From assembly GCA_041578355.1 (NCBI GenBank), contig JBFGHF010000001.1:1-24993 (forward strand): a DNA stretch of 24,993 bases. The letters are read 5' to 3'. This stretch comes from Acidobacteriota bacterium. Lineage in GTDB: Bacteria; Acidobacteriota; UBA6911; RPQK01; JANQFM01. Position 1 is the first letter of the stretch; the number at the start of each line of letters is the position of its first letter. The translations under genes and the position numbers were made by a program. This document shows, one piece after another, positions 8,067 through 16,524 of the stretch. The notes beneath the pieces were generated by a model. It was not told where the DNA came from. It did not search any database and worked only from the letters and a program-made list of their open reading frames with translations.

Positions 8067-8744
8067 CTAGCTCCGATACCAGCGTTCCAGGCGGGCTGGA
8101 GAGACACCCAGCCAGTAGCCCACCACGATCGACCAGTTGGTGATCGTGGTTCGCACCAAGCCCAGGTTTCGCCAGCGTCGAGAAGAGGTTCTGGCTCGAC
8201 CCGGGGCAATTGCGATCCGACCCTTGCGCCTCAAGCGCCGGATCAGTTCGAAGTCCTCCATGATCGGCATCTCCGGATAGCCGCCGATCTCGTCGAACAC
8301 CCTCGCGCTCACGAAGATCGCCTGGTCGCCGTACGGCGCCTGCAGCCATTTGGAGCGAAGATTGGCGACGTATTCGATGAGGCGCAGGCCGAAGCCCGGA
8401 CTGTCGATCCTCAGCAGGAAGGCTCCAGCCGAGGTCCCGGGGCGGTTCAGAACGTCCTGAACTTGTTTCTCGAAATCTTGGGGTAACTTCGTGTCCGCAT
8501 GGAGAAACAAGAGGATGTCGCCGTGTGCCTCCCTCCTGGCGGTGTTCATCTGTTTAGCGCGCCCGAGATCGGCGCGAACCACCCGGGCGCCGCAACCGGC
8601 CGCGGCCTCGGCGGTGCCGTCCAGGCTACCCCCGTCAGCCACGATTATCTCGACGCCGGGACGCCCGCAGAGGAGCCGCAAGTGTGAGTCGATCCGGTCC
8701 TCTTCGTTGAGGGCCGGGATGATTACCGAGATCTTCTCGTTCAA
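8067..8744 (-). CDS. GT2-family glycosyltransferase of the TIGR04283 (rSAM/selenodomain-associated transferase 2) type, about 225 aa
   Basis: [60 protein letters not shown] and C-terminal [10 protein letters not shown]. The start is TTG 8744 or GTG 8753. Confidence 0.9.
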
Positions 8745-8772
8745 GCTTCTCACCCTTCGGGAGTCGGCGCTG

Positions 8773-8781
8773 AGAGTAGCA
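8773..8781 (-). promoter_or_regulatory. Extended -10 element (TG-c-TACTCT) upstream of the glycosyltransferase
   Basis: The minus strand reads cttgTGcTACTCTcagcg, about 20 nt upstream of GTG 8753. Confidence 0.35.
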
Positions 8782-8790
8782 CAAGCAGGT

Positions 8791-8811
8791 CCCCAAGGCC
8801 CGGCCTTGGGG
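8791..8811. promoter_or_regulatory. Perfect 21-bp palindrome, candidate operator between divergent genes
   Basis: CCCCAAGGCC-C-GGCCTTGGGG: 10-bp arms with a 1-nt spacer, too short a loop for a plausible RNA hairpin. Its function is inferred. Confidence 0.45.
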
Positions 8812-8908
8812 CAAGGGAACACGCCACAAAACGCCGTTTTCGGCGTGTCGCCACTTGTCGCTTGCCGGACTTTCCGGGTCGCCCCAGACTGGGTGCGGAG
8901 CGAAAAAA

Positions 8909-9730
8909 ATGATGAAGCGACATCCGGACTCGTATTGGACTCGCCGACGGATTCAAAGCCTGAGCCGCGTTCTGACCTGCGCCGTGGTGGCCGGCTCGTT
9001 GGGAACCCTCTTCTGGAATCCGCAAGGACCCTTCAGCTACTTGCTGGACGTCCTGTTGCGGACCTATCTGATGTTTCTGGGGACGGTGATGGCTCACGAA
9101 GCCGTTCACGGGCATATGGGAGCGAGCCGCTCCTCGAATTTCCGGTGGGGACGGTTTGCCCTTCTGCCCACCCTGGTGCCTTACACGAACTTCCGAAAGA
9201 CCCATCAATTGCACCACCTGCATACCAACGTCCCGGGGTGCGACCCCGATCTCTTCATGAAGCCGCGGCGGAGTTGGGAGATTCCGTTTCGCGCCTTGGC
9301 CATGCCCCACAGCTGGTTTTTCTGGTTGCGGAAGCGAGGCCGACTGAAAACTCCGGATCTGCGCGAGTTGGTCGCCAATTATCTGGGAATCGCGTTGGTC
9401 TACGGCCTGTTGTGGAGTCAGATCGGCCTCTGGCGTCTGGTTCTGGGGATCGGTCCGGCTCTGGTTTTGGTTTCCGTCCTGCTCTGGTACCCCTTCGCCA
9501 TCAAAACACATGAGGGGTTCTCCACCGGAGCCGCCGAGTCGCGCTCTCACGACTATTACGGCAAATCGATGTACTGGCTTTCGTTGGGCCTGTCGATGCA
9601 CCGCGAGCATCATCTGCAGCCGCGCCTGTCCTGGCTCGAGCTGGGAAGGTATGTCAAGTCCGCGCCGTCCGGGGAAGGATTCCGATTCTGGCCCCGCCGC
9701 GACATTCGGCAAGATAAGGAGGCGGCGTGA
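8909..9730 (+). CDS. Membrane fatty-acid desaturase / hydroxylase / ketolase superfamily protein (273 aa)
   Basis: Three His boxes HEAVH, HQLHH and HREHH with hydrophobic segments between them; HTNVPGCDPD after the second box. GGAG RBS before ATG 8909. Confidence 0.9.
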   Translation: MMKRHPDSYWTRRRIQSLSRVLTCAVVAGSLGTLFWNPQGPFSYLLDVLLRTYLMFLGTVMAHEAVHGHMGASRSSNFRWGRFALLPTLVPYTNFRKTHQLHHLHTNVPGCDPDLFMKPRRSWEIPFRALAMPHSWFFWLRKRGRLKTPDLRELVANYLGIALVYGLLWSQIGLWRLVLGIGPALVLVSVLLWYPFAIKTHEGFSTGAAESRSHDYYGKSMYWLSLGLSMHREHHLQPRLSWLELGRYVKSAPSGEGFRFWPRRDIRQDKEAA

Positions 9731-11052
9731 AGCCGACGTTGCTGGATTGGCTCTGCCTGGCCGCCGAGACCCATTCCCGGCCCCAAGATTTCACCGTCCT
9801 CCTGAGCTTGAAGGAAGGGCCGGGGTGGGGCGATTTGGAAAAGGGCGGAGGGAGCGCCTGCAACCTATATCCCAAAAGCGGCGCTCTGCTTTCTGGCGGG
9901 GAGTGGGTGCCGAATTTCCAGCAGCCTTTTCGGGTTGAGCGAGATCTCTCGGTGAGTGATTTCGTCAACGGCCGCTTCGATCTGACGGTTACGCCGCCGG
10001 TCAAGCAGCTTGTTGTCAAAGCCGACCGCTCGGAAACGATTCTGGCGACGCGCGTTCACCATGCTGCAGCCGACGGAGCCAGCGCGGCGCTTTGGCTGTC
10101 CCACCAACTGGGGGTTGTCCGAGGTTCGATCGATCCGCTGTCCGTTCCCGGGAGGATCCGGAATCCGGTGCTCCGCAGCTTCCGGCGGCCGCGCCGAGTC
10201 AGCCCCTTCGCCTTTCTCAGGCCCGCCGATCCCTTGCATGAGGACGGAACACCCCGGCGGCGTCGTTGCTGGAAGACGGTGGAGGTTCCGGATGGGGAGC
10301 TGCCCGGGTTGGGGAGCAGGAGCCGGCTTGGAGAATTTTCTTTCCAGCGCAGCCTGGAAGGCCGCGCCACGTTGGGGTTCTCGAGGGCTGATTGCCTGGC
10401 TGTGTGTTTGCTGGAGGCGCTGAAAGCCTGGCGATTGAAACGCGGCCGGGGGTACGGCCGTTTCGGGCTCTGGTATCCCGTCGACATCCGGCGCCGCAGG
10501 TGGGGCGGATTCGGCAACGGAACCAGTCGGATCCGCCTTTACTCGCGCTTCCCCCCGGAAGCGGATTCCTTCACTCGTTTCCGCCATTTGCGTCGCCAGA
10601 TCCGATGGTCCATGAGGAACGGCGAGTGGCAAATTCCGGCCGCGGAGTGGCTGCAACGGGTGCCGAGGTCGGTTCTGCTGCCCTTGCTGCGCTGGCTGAT
10701 CCGGCGCCCGCGACTCGACTACGGAAGCGCCGTCTTCACCCTCCTACGCTGGCCCACGGGCCCCTTCGAGGGAATTCCGTCTTCGATTCGAAAGGTCGAA
10801 ATCATCGGTCCCTTGCATCGCCAACACGCCCTGGCCGTCAACTGCGTGACCCTGGCCGGCCGGACATGGCTCACCTTCACCTTCGATACCCACCTTCTGA
10901 CTGCCGGCGACGTGGACGTGATTCTCCAGGCCTTTTTGAGCCGTCTCAGGGAGTTTCGGATGCCGGCCAGGGGCCAGGCGGGGCCGGGTTTCCGCTTACC
11001 CGCGGGGGAGTCGGGATTTCCCCGGGGGCGCGCGCTCGAGCTGCAATCGTGA
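9727..11052 (+). CDS. Stand-alone condensation-domain-like / CoA-dependent acyltransferase (441 aa)
   Basis: Catalytic HHxxxDG motif (RVHHAAADG, nt 10057-10077), mid-protein WYPVDIR...FGNG, and C-terminal TWLTFTFDTHLL, all typical of C-domain/CAT-like folds. AGGAGG RBS; GTGA overlap with the desaturase stop. Confidence 0.8.
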   Translation: MKPTLLDWLCLAAETHSRPQDFTVLLSLKEGPGWGDLEKGGGSACNLYPKSGALLSGGEWVPNFQQPFRVERDLSVSDFVNGRFDLTVTPPVKQLVVKADRSETILATRVHHAAADGASAALWLSHQLGVVRGSIDPLSVPGRIRNPVLRSFRRPRRVSPFAFLRPADPLHEDGTPRRRRCWKTVEVPDGELPGLGSRSRLGEFSFQRSLEGRATLGFSRADCLAVCLLEALKAWRLKRGRGYGRFGLWYPVDIRRRRWGGFGNGTSRIRLYSRFPPEADSFTRFRHLRRQIRWSMRNGEWQIPAAEWLQRVPRSVLLPLLRWLIRRPRLDYGSAVFTLLRWPTGPFEGIPSSIRKVEIIGPLHRQHALAVNCVTLAGRTWLTFTFDTHLLTAGDVDVILQAFLSRLREFRMPARGQAGPGFRLPAGESGFPRGRALELQS

Positions 11053-12770
11053 GAGCTCCCGCTGCAGCAGAGAGAATCAACGATCGGCTTCGGGCCGGGA
11101 TTTCACTCGCCATCAGGTTGTCGGGGCTACTGCTGCACTTGTGGCAGCTGCCCTGCATCCGCCTTCACCCTCTTCGGCAGCGACAGTTGGCTCGCCGCTA
11201 CGGTGTGGCTCCATCGCTACCCGTGCGGCCTTTTTCTCCCGCTCTGGAGCTGCGACTGCGGCGGCGATCGGCCGGAAATCCGCGCTTGGCGGCAACCAGC
11301 GGCACGAGCGGGGGAGGGAAGCAAGTTCCCTACAACTGGTGGCGGCTGCAGCAGGTCAAACTGACTTTTGTGGCAATGTTCGCAAGGCTTTGCTGGTCGC
11401 GGTCGATCCGGCGCACCGGCCTCTTCGTTTTCGCCGCCCCCGACGAAAGCGGATCCCTGACTTCGGTGCTGCTCGAGGAGAAAGCCGGGCCCTCTTATCT
11501 CAGCGGCCTGCAGGCGCCGTATCGGGTCCTTTTCGATCGGGGATTGAGACCGGTGATCCGGCGATACGGCTTGGACGCGGTGCAGCTCTGGATTCTCGCC
11601 GTCTCCAATCCCGGGGTTCTTTACAGCACCAACCCGTCGACGCTTTGGGCCTTCTTCAGCCGTCTGGAGGAGGATTGGCCCCGGGCCGCCCGCCTGGTCC
11701 GCGAGTACGCCGGCGATCCTCTCGCCTTGGGGGAGGAGTTCGAACGAATCGGGCGGCGCATCGCCTCGTCGGGGGCCGATCGGCGGCTGAGAGCCATCGC
11801 TGAGAGTTCCGCACCCCTGCCTCTGGCCACCTTCGCGCCCGCGGTAACGGCCTGCATCTGTTGGACCGGGGGGCAGGTGGGCGCTTTTCTGGAGCGATTG
11901 GAGGGCAAGCTGTCCGGGGCCGGGATTTTCATCGTGCCGATGTTCTCGATGTCTACGGAAACCGTCGAAACCGTGAGTCACTTCGGAGCCGCCGGGCCGA
12001 AGTTCCTACCGATGGCGAGGGGGGTCCATTACGAGTTTCAGGAGGAAGGGGTGGAACTTCGCGGGGCGGAACTGCTGAGGCCCGGTCAATTGCGGAGCGG
12101 CAAGGACTATTCCATGATCGTCAGTGATGGTTGGGGCTTGCTCAGGTATCGCACCGACGACGTCTTCCGATGTCGGGGCTTTGTGGGGAAGGTCCCGGAT
12201 CTCGAGTTCGCGGGACGGCGAGGCCTCTCCTACTCTTTCACGGGCGAGAAACTCACCGGCGCTCAGATCGACAAAGTGCTTCGCCGCCTGGGGCAGGAGT
12301 TCCGTTTCGAAGCCGAGCTCGATTTGATGACCTGTTTCCCCTTCTCCGCTTCGAGCGGAGGATTGCCTCACTACAAGATCGCGGTGCTCGTCGATGGCCG
12401 AGCGGCGAGCCTCGAGGCCGGTTGCAAATCGAGCGAGCTGGATCGACTGGCCTGCAGGGCGGACGAGCTACTCTGCAAAACCAATCCGGAATACAAGTCC
12501 AAGCGCCGGTCGCAACGCTTGGGCAAGGTCGAGGCTCTTGTGATGCGTTACCAAGACCTGCCCACTCTCGTCTCGCCCAGGGGCTGGCATTCCCAGTTCA
12601 AGCATCTGCCTTTCTACCCTCGGCTCGTCGCGGCGTTGCCGGAGGCGGTGAACCATTCCGGAGCCGGCGGTGCAGCCATTCGAAATCGGGAAAATCCCGT
12701 CCCAGCAGAAGAAAAGCCGATCCCGCGCGCCGCGCCGTTTCGCCATCGGTGTCCTGGCGATCGCCTATGA
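11049..12770 (+). CDS. GH3-family (acyl-acid amido synthetase-like) adenylating enzyme (573 aa)
   Basis: P-loop TSGTSGGGK, SMSTET, YEF, LLRYRTDD, SFTGEKLT, NPEYKSKR...RL and terminal QFKHLP. GTGA overlap with the upstream stop. The ORF-track start at 10392 is an out-of-frame overlap with the acyltransferase gene. Confidence 0.85.
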   Translation: MRAPAAAERINDRLRAGISLAIRLSGLLLHLWQLPCIRLHPLRQRQLARRYGVAPSLPVRPFSPALELRLRRRSAGNPRLAATSGTSGGGKQVPYNWWRLQQVKLTFVAMFARLCWSRSIRRTGLFVFAAPDESGSLTSVLLEEKAGPSYLSGLQAPYRVLFDRGLRPVIRRYGLDAVQLWILAVSNPGVLYSTNPSTLWAFFSRLEEDWPRAARLVREYAGDPLALGEEFERIGRRIASSGADRRLRAIAESSAPLPLATFAPAVTACICWTGGQVGAFLERLEGKLSGAGIFIVPMFSMSTETVETVSHFGAAGPKFLPMARGVHYEFQEEGVELRGAELLRPGQLRSGKDYSMIVSDGWGLLRYRTDDVFRCRGFVGKVPDLEFAGRRGLSYSFTGEKLTGAQIDKVLRRLGQEFRFEAELDLMTCFPFSASSGGLPHYKIAVLVDGRAASLEAGCKSSELDRLACRADELLCKTNPEYKSKRRSQRLGKVEALVMRYQDLPTLVSPRGWHSQFKHLPFYPRLVAALPEAVNHSGAGGAAIRNRENPVPAEEKPIPRAAPFRHRCPGDRL

Positions 12771-15582
12771 CCAGAACGCGGCCCGGTTGCAGACCGAATT
12801 CGGCGGCGATTTTCCGCAGCATCCGATGATCGGGTTTGACGGCCCCGATCTCGTCGCCGGCATAGACGGCCGAAAAGAAATTCCCCAAACTCAGAGCTTC
12901 CAGTTTGTGCCGGACTGGATGGTCGGAGTAGACGACCTGAACAGATCCGATCGATTCGAAGTAATCCAACACCGCCCGCACCCCCGGCCGGGGACCCGCC
13001 GAACCGATGGCCCGATCGATCCAAGGCGAGATCCACGGCTGCGTCGTCATTTCCTCGATGTTCGTATTCGGTGCATTCCGTTTCGCCCCAGCTTGTCGCC
13101 TCCGTTCCCAGAGCCGAAGCAGTTCTCCGAGCGCAGCGAACGGCGGCTTGCCGCGCAGGGTCTGCACCCAGCAGAGGCGGCACAGTTGCAGGGCCGCGCG
13201 GCGGCGGCTGTAGAGGGTGCCGTCCAGGTCCCAACAGATCAAGTCCGGCTGCCAGTGCGGGGAAACGGGGAAGGGCGAAAGCGACTCTGCGGCGCCGCTG
13301 ATTCGAGGGGACAGGCGGGATGGCTGCGGCACGTTTCCCCATCTCAAGAGAAGGGCAGGCAGAATGACCAAGTCCGCAAGCAGCGCCGCCAGGATCGAGA
13401 GTGCCAGAAGTTGACCGGTTACGCGGGCGGGTGTGAAGTCGGCCAGTTGCAGAGTCAAGAAGCCCGCCGCCATGACCAGCGAGGTGGAGAGAATTCCTGG
13501 CGCGGCCTCCTGCAGAGCGCCGCAGACGCCGGCCGCACCCGTCACGCCCTGTGGCCGATAGGCGGCCAACAAGTGAATCGTGTCGTCGACACAGACTCCC
13601 AGGATGATGGAAAAGACGATGCAGGAGGAGATCCTCATCTCGATTCCCGAGAGGCCCATGAGAGAGAGGACCGTAAGAGCCGGAAAGACGTTGACCAGGA
13701 TGGCGAAAAAGACCAAACGCCGCGAGCGGAGCAGCGCCGCCAGGGTCACGCCCACGGCCAGGAGGCCCAGTGCGAAGCCGCGTGCGGATTGACCCACCAC
13801 GCGGCGCTGCATCTCCTGAGCCAGGTATACGAATCCTTGAATCTCCAGGCGGCTGTCTTCGCCGAACACCCGGTCGTGAATGGTGCGCGCTTTTTCCAGG
13901 AACTCGAAGGTGCGTGCCGTGCCGCGATCGAAGACCCTGGCTTCGATGCGGGCGATTCCTTCTCTCCAATCCGGAAAAGCGTTCTCGACGTGGCGGCGGG
14001 CCACGGCATCCAGCACTTTCCAATCGGCGGGTGCTCGGGGCAACGGGTCGAGGCCCGTCATGGCGCGCCAGAAAAAGCGGTAGATGGCCGCGGGCGAGAT
14101 CGAGCTGCTGACGAAATCGGGTGCTTGCGAGAAAGTGCTTTCGAATTCTCGGATGCGGGCGGCGAACTCCGAGAATCGTAAGGAGTCTCCGGCCAAGTCC
14201 TCGGACGTGTGGAGGATGAAGGTCAAGGGAAAACCGCCCCCCATCCTCTCTTCGACGGCTTGTCGGGTTTGTCTGATCGGATGACCGGACCGAACGTCGT
14301 CGACCAGCAGGGATTCGACTCGCAAGCGGGGCATGCCTGCCGCAGCCGAGAGGAGAAGGAAGAGGAGGGCTGCGGTGGCCGCTGTTCCGGATCGGCGTGT
14401 CAAGCGTCCGATCCAGCCGACTCCCGAAGCGGCCGAGGGTGTCGGCGCGGGCAAGAGCGACAGTGCCGCCAGTCCCGTGGTCATGGTGGCGGTGTAGGCA
14501 ACCCCCATTCCGAGAGCCGCGACGAGTCCGAAATCTCTCAAAACCGGGATGCCGGTCGCCACCAGCGAGAGAAATCCCGCGGCGGTGGTCGCGGAGGTCA
14601 GGAGCAAGGCGCCGTTGAGCCGTTCGGCGGCCGAAGCGAGCGAAGCTTTCTTCGATCCCTCTTTCAGAGCCCTCCGATAGGCGTGGAAGAGATGGATGGA
14701 GTCGGAACTGGCGGCGAAGGTGAGAATCACCGGAAGCGCGATCGAAAGGGGAGAGAGAGGACGGCCCAACGCGGACTGCAGGGCCAGGGTCCAGAGAATG
14801 GTCGATCCGGCCACCAATGCGGGCACGACGATTCCCAGCCAATGGCGCAGCGTGACGCCCAGGAGCAGCGTGAAGGCGATCAGAACCAAAGGGAAAACCT
14901 TTTTTGCGTCTTGGCGAATCAGCTGAAGATAGGCCTCCCGAGTCGGAGGACTGCCGGTCAGCAGGAAGCTCCGCCCAGATCGGCAACGGGCTTCCAGGAT
15001 TCGGGAGACAGTCTGGAGGAGCGGTTGACGATCCCGCCCGTCGTCGTAATCCGAGTGCAGCCAGAGAAGCAAAATGGCAGTCTTCCCGTCCTCTGATAGC
15101 AGCCGTCCCGCCAGCAGCGGTTCGCCCCGGATTTGCTTCTCGAGATTCTCCCACTCCGTGGGACTGCGGGCTTCGCTTCCGAGGGCGGGAATCAGCTTGA
15201 CGGCGCCGATGCGCCGGCCCGGGTAAAGCAGGTCGAAAAGGGGATCGCGTCGGGCGATTTGGGAATCGACGAGACTGTCCACCTGCTCGACCCAAGGCAA
15301 GGCGCCCAGGGTCTCGGTCAACTCGCGAAGCTGAGTGGCGCCGGAATTCGAAAAAAGCTGCGGATCGGTCCAGAGGACCGTCAAGGTGCGGTCGGCCCGC
15401 CCGAAACGTTCACCCAACTCTTTGTATCGCCGCGTAAGGGGGTCGCGGTCGGCAACGAACTGTTCGAGACTCAAATCGACGTGCAAGTCGCGCAGCGCCG
15501 AGACGGCGGGCAAGCTCAACAGAGCCGCCGTTGCCAGCAGCAGACAGGGACGGCCGATGGAGAAGGCGATGAGTCTCTTCAT
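12598..15582 (-). CDS. MMPL/RND-family transporter fused in frame to a C-terminal HAD-family hydrolase (994 aa)
   Basis: N-terminal TM, two periplasmic loops, and two TM bundles with SSDSIH and GVCVDDTIH. A Pro/Ser-rich linker leads to HAD motifs I (WDLDGTLY), II (YSD), III (KP) and IV (IGDRQDTD). GGGAGG RBS upstream. Confidence 0.88.
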   Translation of the reverse strand: MKRLIAFSIGRPCLLLATAALLSLPAVSALRDLHVDLSLEQFVADRDPLTRRYKELGERFGRADRTLTVLWTDPQLFSNSGATQLRELTETLGALPWVEQVDSLVDSQIARRDPLFDLLYPGRRIGAVKLIPALGSEARSPTEWENLEKQIRGEPLLAGRLLSEDGKTAILLLWLHSDYDDGRDRQPLLQTVSRILEARCRSGRSFLLTGSPPTREAYLQLIRQDAKKVFPLVLIAFTLLLGVTLRHWLGIVVPALVAGSTILWTLALQSALGRPLSPLSIALPVILTFAASSDSIHLFHAYRRALKEGSKKASLASAAERLNGALLLTSATTAAGFLSLVATGIPVLRDFGLVAALGMGVAYTATMTTGLAALSLLPAPTPSAASGVGWIGRLTRRSGTAATAALLFLLLSAAAGMPRLRVESLLVDDVRSGHPIRQTRQAVEERMGGGFPLTFILHTSEDLAGDSLRFSEFAARIREFESTFSQAPDFVSSSISPAAIYRFFWRAMTGLDPLPRAPADWKVLDAVARRHVENAFPDWREGIARIEARVFDRGTARTFEFLEKARTIHDRVFGEDSRLEIQGFVYLAQEMQRRVVGQSARGFALGLLAVGVTLAALLRSRRLVFFAILVNVFPALTVLSLMGLSGIEMRISSCIVFSIILGVCVDDTIHLLAAYRPQGVTGAAGVCGALQEAAPGILSTSLVMAAGFLTLQLADFTPARVTGQLLALSILAALLADLVILPALLLRWGNVPQPSRLSPRISGAAESLSPFPVSPHWQPDLICWDLDGTLYSRRRAALQLCRLCWVQTLRGKPPFAALGELLRLWERRRQAGAKRNAPNTNIEEMTTQPWISPWIDRAIGSAGPRPGVRAVLDYFESIGSVQVVYSDHPVRHKLEALSLGNFFSAVYAGDEIGAVKPDHRMLRKIAAEFGLQPGRVLVIGDRQDTDGETARRAGSAFLLLGRDFPDFEWLHRRLRNGSPPPATPRRAEGRKADA

Positions 15583-15693: not shown

Positions 15694-16524
15694 TTAGGGT
15701 TTGGCGGTGTCGTTGAGGCGCCAATCGTAGTCGATGTATCGGACTCGATAACGGCCCTCGAGCAGGAAATTCCGATCTTCCGGCGAGACGTAGTCGATCA
15801 AGTAGTCGAGCACTCCCTGCTCGATCGGGTCCTTCCGGGACCGCTGCCTCTCACCACGGGCCTTGCGAGCCTGGCCGGGCGTCTCGAAGTCCTCGCCGAA
15901 CCACTTGAATATCGAGGACAGGTGCAGCACGCCCTGCTTGCGGTCGATGGTCAAGTTGCGGGGTCGGGAAAGGAAAATGGCGCTCTGCTCCTCCAAGGCT
16001 TGTTCCAGACCGTCCCCTCGGTAAGGCCGGTTGCGAAGGGGCGGACAGCCTCGCGAAGCGCAGACCAGTGCGAAGTGGATGCGCGGCTCGGAGAATTCGG
16101 CCCGCAAAATCTCGTGCTCGATCTGATTGAGGCTCAGCCGTCGGCCCATCACCGGGAACCGAATCTCGTCCCAGACACCGGGGATTTGTTGAATGCTGTT
16201 GGCCGGATAGACCAAGGACCGTATGAAACGGCTCCGAATCGGGTAGTGGTCGATGACGATTCTCAAGGCGAGTGCGTTGTAGGCATTGATCCAAAAAGCG
16301 ATTCGTTCTTCTCGAGTCCATGCGGAGTAGGAGGCGCGGGAGATGGAGCCCAGCCGTTCAACGAATCGGTCCAGGCTCTTTCGTGAACCCTGGAGGCCTC
16401 GATAATCCACCTCTTCTCCCCGCACCCGGTTCTCCAGCACCGCGGCCCAATCGAGGTAGAGGTCGTCGCCGGGCCCGCCGAGCAGCACGCCGAGCAGGAA
16501 CGGCGCTGTGAAGAGGACCCTCAT
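15694..16524 (-). CDS. DUF547 domain-containing exported protein (276 aa)
   Basis: N-terminal hydrophobic signal; VDYRGL, AFWINAYNA, SLNQIEHEILR, EPRIHFALVCASRGCPPL, LSSIFKWFGEDF and YIDYDWRLN match DUF547. Confidence 0.9.
   Translation of the reverse strand: MRVLFTAPFLLGVLLGGPGDDLYLDWAAVLENRVRGEEVDYRGLQGSRKSLDRFVERLGSISRASYSAWTREERIAFWINAYNALALRIVIDHYPIRSRFIRSLVYPANSIQQIPGVWDEIRFPVMGRRLSLNQIEHEILRAEFSEPRIHFALVCASRGCPPLRNRPYRGDGLEQALEEQSAIFLSRPRNLTIDRKQGVLHLSSIFKWFGEDFETPGQARKARGERQRSRKDPIEQGVLDYLIDYVSPEDRNFLLEGRYRVRYIDYDWRLNDTAKP

What the first reader, a model, noticed from the sequence alone, without database searches (positions are those of the whole stretch)
8909..12770. Coupled desaturase - condensation/acyltransferase - GH3 operon: a carrier-protein-free acyl-amide/lipid pathway
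Seen: three genes linked by two consecutive GTGA stop/start overlaps (9727-9730 and 11049-11052), with intact His boxes, HHxxxDG and TSGTSGGGK motifs. No ACP/PCP, A domain or KS gene is nearby. Established: plant GH3 enzymes adenylate carboxylic acids and ligate them to amino acids, and bacterial GH3 proteins are mostly uncharacterised. HHxxxDG folds form amides or esters from thioesters. His-box enzymes desaturate, hydroxylate or form alkynes on acyl chains. Inference: a minimal biosynthetic cluster for a modified N-acyl/O-acyl lipid or signal molecule, of a type standard BGC rules may miss.
Basis: partly seen in the sequence, partly recalled or inferred. Interest (0 to 1): 0.78.

Follow-up and report, generated by a model that had tools for sequence, protein, structure and literature searches.

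The report
Conserved GH3 lipid-tailoring three-gene cassette
Three tightly coupled genes (a membrane di-iron oxygenase, a free-standing condensation-type acyltransferase and a GH3 acid-amine ligase) form a rare unit kept intact in dozens of uncultured Acidobacteriota, and it most likely builds an undescribed amino-acid-containing lipid by a route resembling the recently found GH3-dependent ornithine-lipid pathway.

Summary
Genes A (8909-9730, FA_desaturase family), B (9727-11052, HHxxxDG, no Pfam family) and C (11049-12770, GH3) overlap by GTGA at both junctions. All motifs are intact and the contig carries no carrier-protein domain. In 58 species-level genomes, all labelled Acidobacteriota MAGs, A-B-C lie in the same order and strand wherever the contig allows. 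4-nt overlaps are possible at about 80% of junctions and the catalytic residues are invariant. The cassette is rare: 5/151 sampled Pyrinomonadaceae genomes and 3/41 genomes of the window's order. About 22 of 58 loci have a HAD phosphatase just downstream; here it is fused to an MMPL exporter. B models as a condensation/PapA5/WS-DGAT fold and C as a plant-type GH3 fold. The closest characterised system is OlsH/OlsI of Singulisphaera (PMC12493201), where a GH3 enzyme N-acylates ornithine with free fatty acid. Here the O-acyltransferase is non-homologous and an oxygenase is added. I propose GH3 amide formation, chain hydroxylation, O-acylation, then export. The product is unproven. Carotenoid and hopanoid readings are rejected. 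This scan noted GH3 plus condensation-like pairs before on other DNA. New variant of a known kind; interest 0.58.

The parts
8909..9730 (+). Gene A: small membrane di-iron His-box oxygenase (FA_desaturase family). An alternative upstream TTG start lies at 8855.
   Evidence: PF00487, E 2e-20, 74 bits. The eight canonical His plus H152, H219 and H232 are invariant in 49 orthologues. It is 54-66% identical to orthologues, the best conserved of the three genes. Only weak similarity to CrtR/CrtW models: 40 bits against a cut-off of 475.
9716..9730 (+). A/B junction: AAGGAGG ribosome-binding site inside the end of A, then the GTGA start/stop overlap.
   Evidence: Sequence read. A 4-nt overlap is possible at 43 of 53 A/B junctions in other genomes.
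9727..11052 (+). Gene B: free-standing condensation-superfamily (HHxxxDG) acyltransferase of an unmodelled family.
   Evidence: No Pfam hit. H111, H112, D116 and G117 and an FGNGTSRIRLY block are invariant in 23 homologues. AlphaFold model: pLDDT 76, pTM 0.79. It matches NRPS C domains, AzeD, PapA5, Rv2305 and WS/DGATs at TM 0.57-0.68. The family has 126 clusters at 50% identity with E<=1e-30.
11049..12770 (+). Gene C: GH3-type adenylating acid-amine ligase. The conserved core ends near 12615 and the last ~50 codons are not conserved.
   Evidence: GH3_M and GH3_C. Plant GH3 chains are the only PDB sequence matches below E 0.02. Model pLDDT 75; the top 29 Foldseek PDB hits are all plant GH3, TM about 0.6, E 1e-18 against 1e-8 for PaaK. 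TSGT..K, SMSTE, YRTxD, TGEKLT and QFK.LP are conserved in 120 homologues.
11049..11052 (+). B/C junction: GTGA start/stop overlap.
   Evidence: A 4-nt overlap is possible at 41 of 56 B/C junctions elsewhere, plus 7 with a 1-nt overlap.
12598..15582 (-). Convergent MMPL (HAE3/RND) exporter fused to a C-terminal HAD-IA phosphatase; probable accessory partner. Its 3' tail overlaps the unconserved tail of C by 173 nt.
   Evidence: Pfam MMPL, Sterol-sensing and HAD. NCBIfam HAE3, E 5e-44. A stand-alone HAD homologue lies just downstream of C in about 22 of 58 loci, and MMPL plus HAD in L064.

Best explanation
A, B and C form one translationally coupled operon that is inherited as a unit and makes a modified acyl-amide lipid, most likely an acyloxyacyl-type amino lipid. 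Proposed order of steps: (1) The GH3 enzyme C adenylates a free fatty acid with ATP and joins it directly to the amino group of an amino acid or amine, giving an N-acyl amino acid, as OlsH does; this step needs no CoA or carrier protein. (2) The membrane di-iron enzyme A hydroxylates (or desaturates) the acyl chain. (3) The condensation-fold enzyme B uses its HHxxxDG base to esterify that hydroxyl (or another nucleophile) with a second acyl group taken from acyl-CoA or acyl-ACP of primary metabolism. (4) Where present, the HAD phosphatase trims a phosphorylated precursor or intermediate and the MMPL pump moves the lipid to the envelope. What is shown: the operon structure, the conservation, the folds and the catalytic motifs. 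What is inferred: the substrates, the order of steps and the product.
For: The operon is real and is a unit. GTGA overlaps lie at both junctions with an SD before B. A-B-C lie in the same order and strand in 3/3 metagenome contigs and in all 58 genome loci where the contig allows. 4-nt overlaps are possible at 43/53 and 41/56 junctions. Trees of A and C recover the same major clades. Each triad genome searched has a single A-type gene, at the locus. Enzyme identities: A is PF00487 with invariant His boxes. B has the condensation/PapA5/WS-DGAT fold with an invariant HHxxxDG. C has the GH3 fold and conserved nucleotide motifs. Precedent: OlsH, a bacterial GH3, makes N-acyl ornithine from free fatty acid, ATP, Mg and ornithine. 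It prefers non-hydroxylated fatty acids, and a separate O-acyltransferase (OlsI) in the operon adds the second chain (PMC12493201). This leaves room for a hydroxylase, which the triad supplies. The authors expect other bacterial GH3s to use other amino acids. Lipid and export context: MMPL-HAD lies next door here and in L064. More distant B-like proteins repeatedly sit beside an oxygenase (FA_desaturase or Rieske) and an MMPL (L067, L068, L071, L072). No carrier protein is on the contig.
Against: There is no chemical or expression data, and every carrier is an uncultured MAG. The 2026 review's stringent OlsH search lists Acanthopleuribacterales but not the orders seen here, so C is probably a distant GH3 clade with a different substrate. 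A could be a desaturase or acetylenase rather than a hydroxylase. Distant B-like proteins occur with oxygenase and MMPL without a visible GH3, so B's substrate need not be a GH3 product. The role of HAD is unexplained by an amino-lipid scheme. The cassette is rare, so it is an accessory trait and not a core membrane pathway.
Confidence: 0.42

Rival explanations
1. PapA/MmpL/FadD-like logic. The GH3 enzyme acts only as a fatty acyl-AMP ligase. The condensation-fold enzyme B takes the activated acyl group and esterifies a polar, possibly phosphorylated, acceptor such as a sugar phosphate. HAD removes the phosphate and MMPL exports an acylated glycolipid or wax-like ester. A tailors the chain.
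For: B's structural neighbours include PapA5 and the mycobacterial WS/DGATs. MMPL and HAD are adjacent or fused. Distant B-likes pair with MMPL. A phosphatase fused to the exporter fits a phosphorylated intermediate.
Against: Every characterised GH3, including bacterial OlsH, completes the reaction itself by amide formation (PMC12493201). No condensation-superfamily enzyme known to me uses an acyl-adenylate donor (own knowledge). A complex prediction for B with C gave no support, which is not evidence either way. MMPL is present in only 2 of 59 triad loci.
Confidence: 0.2
2. Signal or secondary-metabolite reading. A is a desaturase/acetylenase, as in JamB/TtuB or UndB, that produces an unsaturated or terminal-alkyne/alkene acyl chain. 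The product is a diffusible N-acyl amino acid type signal or surfactant rather than a membrane lipid.
For: Adenylating enzyme plus membrane desaturase is the known JamABC/TtuABC arrangement (own knowledge). The cassette is rare and patchy like an accessory metabolite cluster. Terriglobia loci add a second, DesA-like desaturase.
Against: There is no ACP, which Jam-type desaturases need. The adenylating enzyme is GH3, not a FAAL. The presence of B and MMPL favours a two-chain exported lipid.
Confidence: 0.12
3. Isoprenoid tailoring. A is a CrtR/CrtW-like carotenoid ring oxygenase (or a triterpenoid oxygenase). B esterifies the hydroxylated carotenoid or hopanoid, and the HpnN-like MMPL exports it.
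For: A's best NCBIfam hits are CrtR (E 1.7e-10) and CrtW. The MMPL weakly matches HpnN.
Against: All those scores lie far below the curated cut-offs: 40 against 475, and 81 against 752. No phytoene/squalene synthase family gene (PF00494) was found in any of five triad genomes, two of them single-contig chromosomes, while the control genomes rang. Squalene-hopene cyclase matches were only about 30 bits in four of the five genomes.
Confidence: 0.03
4. Plant-hormone conjugation. C is an auxin, jasmonate or salicylate amido synthetase, as in plants, used by soil bacteria to modify host hormones.
For: This is the GH3 family's classical function. Many carriers are soil MAGs.
Against: The window's DNA is held by marine metagenome runs. 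Strict coupling to a membrane acyl-chain oxygenase and a lipid-type acyltransferase makes small aromatic acids unlikely. Identity to plant GH3 is only about 15% over the fold.
Confidence: 0.04

Closest known systems
OlsH/OlsI(/OlsG) GH3-dependent ornithine-lipid pathway of Singulisphaera acidiphila (PMC12493201; review PMC12971839)
   Same: A bacterial GH3-type ligase sits in one operon with a separate acyltransferase. In OlsH the first step is ATP-dependent and free of CoA and ACP. The three GH3 nucleotide motifs are present here too.
   Different: The second enzyme here has a condensation/HHxxxDG fold, not the alpha/beta-hydrolase OlsI. A His-box oxygenase is an obligatory third member. There is no OlsG methyltransferase. 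HAD and MMPL are recurrent partners. The carriers are Acidobacteriota, not Planctomycetes. The amine substrate is unknown, and identity to OlsH was not measured.
Mycobacterial PapA acyltransferase / MmpL exporter / FadD acyl-AMP ligase lipid loci (PDIM, sulfolipid, polyacyltrehalose)
   Same: A free-standing condensation-fold acyltransferase sits next to an MMPL pump and an adenylating enzyme. PapA5 (1q9j) and Rv0221/Tgs1 are among B's structural neighbours.
   Different: There is no PKS and no carrier protein. The adenylating enzyme is GH3, not an AMP-binding FAAL. MMPL is present in only two triad lineages. B has no sequence-level match to PapA or WS/DGAT families beyond the HHxxxDG motif.
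JamABC/TtuABC terminal-alkyne cassettes (own knowledge)
   Same: A three-gene unit combining a fatty-acid adenylating enzyme with a membrane His-box desaturase.
   Different: The third gene there is an ACP, which is absent here. GH3 replaces the FAAL, and a condensation-fold enzyme replaces the carrier.
OlsBA and OlsF aminolipid synthases with the OlsC/D/E hydroxylases (review PMC12971839)
   Same: The proposed product class is the same: an N-acyl amino acid carrying an ester-linked second chain, with oxygenase tailoring.
   Different: None of the enzymes is homologous. Those pathways use 3-hydroxyacyl-ACP, so the hydroxyl comes from fatty acid synthesis. OlsE belongs to a different di-iron family from PF00487.

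Membership tests
GH3 acyl acid amido synthetases | Pfam GH3 domains over the curated cut-off | tested here: met
   GH3_M scores 48.8 bits against a cut-off of 23.6. GH3_C scores 20.7, just under its 23.6 cut-off. The N-terminal PF03321 model is not hit in the window protein but is hit in many orthologues.
GH3 acyl acid amido synthetases | Three nucleotide-binding motifs (P-loop-like TSGT..K, S/T-S-E, YRxGD-like) | tested here: met
   TSGTSGGGK (83-91), SMSTE (300-304) and YRTDD (367-371). T83, S84, G85, K91, S302, E304, Y367, T369 and D371 are invariant in 25 sequences, and the motifs are conserved in 120.
GH3 acyl acid amido synthetases | Two-domain GH3 fold | tested here: met
   Model pLDDT 75. 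The top 29 Foldseek PDB hits are all plant GH3 (E down to 6e-19, TM 0.55-0.62). The next class, PaaK, scores 1e-8.
GH3 acyl acid amido synthetases | ATP-dependent amide formation between an acid and an amine | not testable with these tools
   Needs an enzyme assay.
OlsH/OlsI ornithine-lipid pathway | GH3-like enzyme as first step | tested here: met
   See the GH3 rows.
OlsH/OlsI ornithine-lipid pathway | alpha/beta-hydrolase O-acyltransferase OlsI in the same operon | tested here: not met
   The operon partner is a condensation-fold protein. No alpha/beta-hydrolase lies in the conserved unit.
OlsH/OlsI ornithine-lipid pathway | Ornithine as acceptor; OlsG N-methyltransferase in the operon | tested here: not met
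   No methyltransferase is in the window or the related loci. Acceptor specificity is not testable here.
Condensation / PapA / WS-DGAT superfamily | HHxxxDG catalytic motif | tested here: met
   HHAAADG at 111-117. H111, H112, D116 and G117 are invariant in 23 sequences.
Condensation / PapA / WS-DGAT superfamily | Two-lobed chloramphenicol-acetyltransferase-like fold | tested here: met
   pTM 0.79. Foldseek E 1e-14 to 1e-17 and TM 0.57-0.68 to AzeD, NRPS C/Cy domains, PapA5, Rv2305 and Tgs1.
Condensation / PapA / WS-DGAT superfamily | Match to an existing family model (PF00668, PF03007, TIGR02946) over its cut-off | tested here: not met
   There is no Pfam hit. TIGR02946 scores 18.8 bits against a cut-off of 310, at the motif only. 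The profile against PDB gives its best E of 0.0012. B is therefore a new family within the superfamily.
Membrane FA desaturase/hydroxylase family (PF00487) | Pfam match and three His boxes (HxxxH, HxxHH, HxxHH) | tested here: met
   74 bits against a cut-off of 29.7. All eight box histidines plus three more are invariant in 49 sequences.
Carotenoid oxygenases CrtR/CrtW | Equivalog-level score and a carotenoid pathway in the genome | tested here: not met
   CrtR scores 40.5 bits against 475 and CrtW 24.6 against 350. No PF00494 gene was found in five carrier genomes.
Mycobacterial PapA-MmpL-FadD lipid loci | FAAL (AMP-binding) enzyme plus PKS or carrier protein feeding the PapA enzyme | tested here: not met
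   No AMP-binding, PKS or PP-binding domain is in the window or the conserved unit.

The most novel reading that the evidence does not exclude
The free-standing condensation-fold enzyme B takes the acyl-adenylate made by the GH3 enzyme directly as its donor. That would be a condensation-superfamily reaction needing neither CoA nor a phosphopantetheinyl carrier, so the triad would be a fully carrier-free two-acyl lipid assembly line that current BGC rules cannot recognise.
Probability: 0.1. Interest if true: 0.85.

Novelty: new variant of a known kind. Interest (0 to 1): 0.58.

Why it matters
GH3-dependent lipid synthesis in bacteria was shown only in 2025, for a single planctomycete. Its authors predicted that other GH3 clades make other N-acyl amino acids. 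This cassette gives a concrete, strictly conserved three-enzyme unit in which to test that prediction. It would link a new family of condensation-fold acyltransferases and a small His-box oxygenase to amino-lipid chemistry. It could also explain where the acyl-chain hydroxyl comes from when the GH3 enzyme prefers non-hydroxylated fatty acids. All carriers found are uncultured Acidobacteriota, a dominant soil phylum whose lipids are used as environmental proxies. The cluster has no PKS, NRPS or carrier-protein hallmark, so I expect (not tested here) that standard BGC rules would miss it.

Tried and rejected
1. A single-sequence scan of genome contigs with B found nothing; the alignment-based scan was needed.
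2. A complex prediction of C(1-530) with B(1-412) scored 0.00 and gave 'no support'. This is no evidence either way, so I make no binding claim.
3. The carotenoid/hopanoid reading is rejected. A and the MMPL score far below the CrtR/CrtW and HpnN cut-offs. No PF00494 and no convincing squalene-hopene cyclase were found in the carrier genomes.
4. A PDB sequence search with A gave nothing useful.
5. Three literature searches for bacterial GH3 with desaturase or acyltransferase found nothing on this triad. The OlsH paper came as a lead from earlier notes of this scan, and I then read it.
6. I looked for transcript evidence. Only DNA metagenome runs (marine, one soil at 5%) hold the stretch, so no reads were laid.
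7. I tried to link C to the Pyrinomonadaceae GH3 in the OlsH paper's tree (MBC7916061.1). Six NCBI-sourced orthologues have other accessions, so this is unresolved.
8. The flanking genes conserved in Pyrinomonadaceae loci (APH, acyl-CoA dehydrogenase, DUF892-like, alpha-2-macroglobulin) are absent from the Terriglobia loci and the window. I treat them as lineage synteny, not as part of the unit.


Full report
**1. Observation**

The window holds three co-directional ORFs: A at 8855/8909-9730, B at 9727-11052 and C at 11049-12770. Both junctions are GTGA start/stop overlaps. A canonical AAGGAGG lies 4 nt before the GTG of B, and 9727 is the most upstream start the frame allows. The start of C at 11049 is set by homology, since orthologues begin a few residues before the conserved INDxLR block.

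The translations show the stated motifs. Pfam assigns A to FA_desaturase (74 bits) and C to GH3_M/GH3_C, while B has no family. No carrier protein, adenylation domain or ketosynthase lies in the window. A PP-binding search of the whole 746-contig assembly finds six hits, none on contig C1, which is the window.

**2. Conservation**

B has hundreds of homologues at 35-39% identity, all named 'hypothetical'. On three long contigs the neighbours were FA_desaturase upstream and GH3 downstream, on the same strand.

An alignment-driven scan of one genome per species returned 58 loci. All are labelled Acidobacteriota MAGs: mostly Pyrinomonadaceae, also Terriglobia, Bryobacterales, Blastocatellia and Marinacidobacterales. 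tblastn shows A-B-C in the same order and strand in every locus where the contig is long enough. A is 54-66% identical, B 31-40% and C 39-48%.

- A start codon overlapping the preceding stop by 4 nt is available at 43/53 A/B junctions and 41/56 B/C junctions.
- Trees of A and of C recover the same major clades, with the window's copy on the longest branch.
- Five carrier genomes each have a single A-type gene, at the locus.

The genes therefore behave as one inherited unit. The unit is rare. It occurs in 3 of 41 genomes of the window's order, 2 of 301 of its phylum sample and 5 of 151 sampled relatives of a Pyrinomonadaceae carrier. The B family as a whole has 126 clusters at 50% identity with E<=1e-30. 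The window's DNA is held by marine metagenome runs.

**3. Recurrent partners**

- A HAD-IA phosphatase homologous to the C-terminal domain of the window's MMPL-HAD fusion (12598-15582, minus strand) lies just downstream in about 22 of 58 loci, convergent in most of them.
- L064 has MMPL plus HAD.
- Terriglobia loci add a second, DesA-like desaturase and a 237-aa unknown protein between C and HAD.
- A TPR protein lies divergently upstream in 31 loci.
- Other flanks are lineage synteny only.

In the window, the unconserved tails of C and of MMPL-HAD overlap by 173 nt. The conserved cores do not overlap.

**4. What the proteins are**

- **A.** All eight box histidines and three further histidines are invariant in 49 sequences. 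Its nearest curated models are CrtR and CrtW, but at a tenth of their cut-offs.
- **B.** HHxxxDG and an FGNGTSRIRLY block are invariant. The model (pLDDT 76, pTM 0.79) matches the two-lobed condensation fold. Hits include AzeD, NRPS C/Cy/E domains, PapA5, Rv2305 and the mycobacterial WS/DGATs at TM 0.57-0.68. Sequence profiles barely reach any solved chain. It is a new family inside the superfamily.
- **C.** Plant GH3 chains are the only PDB sequence matches below E 0.02. The model's top 29 structural hits are all plant GH3, ten orders of magnitude ahead of PaaK-type ligases. The nucleotide motifs are conserved in 120 homologues.

**5. Mechanism**

A lead from earlier notes of this scan pointed to Rivera-Najera et al. 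2025, which I read. OlsH, a GH3-like enzyme of Singulisphaera acidiphila, forms N-acyl ornithine from free fatty acid, ATP/Mg and ornithine without CoA or ACP. It prefers non-hydroxylated fatty acids. OlsI, an alpha/beta-hydrolase in the same operon, adds the ester-linked chain. The authors expect other bacterial GH3 clades to use other amino acids, and a 2026 review still lists OlsHI as characterised only in that organism.

The triad fits the same logic with different parts. GH3 makes the amide, the His-box enzyme supplies a chain hydroxyl (or a double bond), and the condensation-fold enzyme esterifies it from acyl-CoA or acyl-ACP. HAD and MMPL would serve trimming and export.

Independent support for an 'oxygenase then acyltransferase then export' core comes from distant B-like proteins. 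They sit beside a FA_desaturase or Rieske oxygenase and an MMPL (L067, L068, L071, L072). I put 0.42 on this scheme. I put about 0.9 on the weaker statement that this is a real, conserved lipid-type biosynthetic operon.

**6. Rivals**

- A PapA/MmpL/FadD-like glycolipid scheme, with GH3 acting only as an acyl-AMP ligase: 0.2.
- A Jam-like unsaturated acyl-amide signal: 0.12.
- Hormone conjugation: 0.04.
- Carotenoid/hopanoid tailoring: 0.03. Five carrier genomes lack PF00494 and mostly lack a credible squalene-hopene cyclase.

A complex prediction for B with C gave no support and is not used as evidence.

**7. Novelty**

GH3-dependent amino-lipid synthesis is a known kind since 2025. The pairing of a GH3 with an unmodelled condensation-fold family and an obligatory His-box oxygenase, restricted so far to uncultured Acidobacteriota, is not described in the papers I could find. 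Earlier agents of this scan noted GH3 plus condensation-like pairs on other DNA, so the theme recurs. I class it as a new variant of a known kind, interest 0.58.

Noticed in passing
window 8067-8822 (-): The divergent upstream GT2 gene scores 258 bits on TIGR04283 'arsenosugar biosynthesis glycosyltransferase' (cut-off 182). A DUF547 gene lies at 15694-16524 (-). Neither gene was found next to the triad in the other 58 loci (tblastn).
   Followed up: partly
window 12598-15582 (-): This is a 994-aa MMPL (HAE3) exporter fused to a C-terminal HAD-IA phosphatase. Its 3' tail overlaps the unconserved tail of the GH3 gene by 173 nt. Stand-alone HAD homologues follow the GH3 gene in about 22 other loci, so the fusion joins two recurrent partners of the triad.
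   Followed up: partly
L034:10810-13353 (-) and the same stretch in L044, L045, L052, L053, L056, L058, L069: Terriglobia versions of the locus carry an extra convergent block after GH3. It consists of a 370-388 aa DesA-like FA desaturase, a 237-aa protein with no family, and a HAD phosphatase.
   Followed up: partly
L067:2407-8120; L072:3650-8303; L071:164-2375; L068:15-2893: More distant B-like proteins (E 1e-23 to 1e-35 to the family profile) sit in other small units with no GH3 gene seen on the fetched stretches, several of which are short contigs. The units are Rieske oxygenase - FA_desaturase - B-like - MMPL, Rieske - B-like with a convergent MMPL, FA_desaturase - B-like, and MMPL - B-like.
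   Followed up: partly
L018:5621-6898 (-) and 30 other loci: A TPR protein with weak YbgF/BamD/LapB-like matches lies divergently just upstream of gene A in 31 loci (Pyrinomonadaceae, Blastocatellia, one Terriglobia). It is absent from the window.
   Followed up: no
L043:9221-9781; L049:9959-10765: In two long-contig loci the GH3 match covers only part of the gene. This may be a frameshift, an assembly error or decay of C. I did not examine it.
   Followed up: no
window (whole): The window is a complete 24,993-bp contig of a 74%-complete MAG. Its DNA is held mainly by marine metagenome runs, whereas most relatives of the triad come from soil-type MAGs. The window's A and C sit on the longest branches of their trees.
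   Followed up: partly
L069:7001-8683: A 560-aa B homologue has a 250-residue N-terminal extension of no known family, next to a 279-aa protein with a weak SRPBCC/polyketide-cyclase match in place of gene A. The contig has low (2x) long-read coverage, so errors are possible.
   Followed up: no
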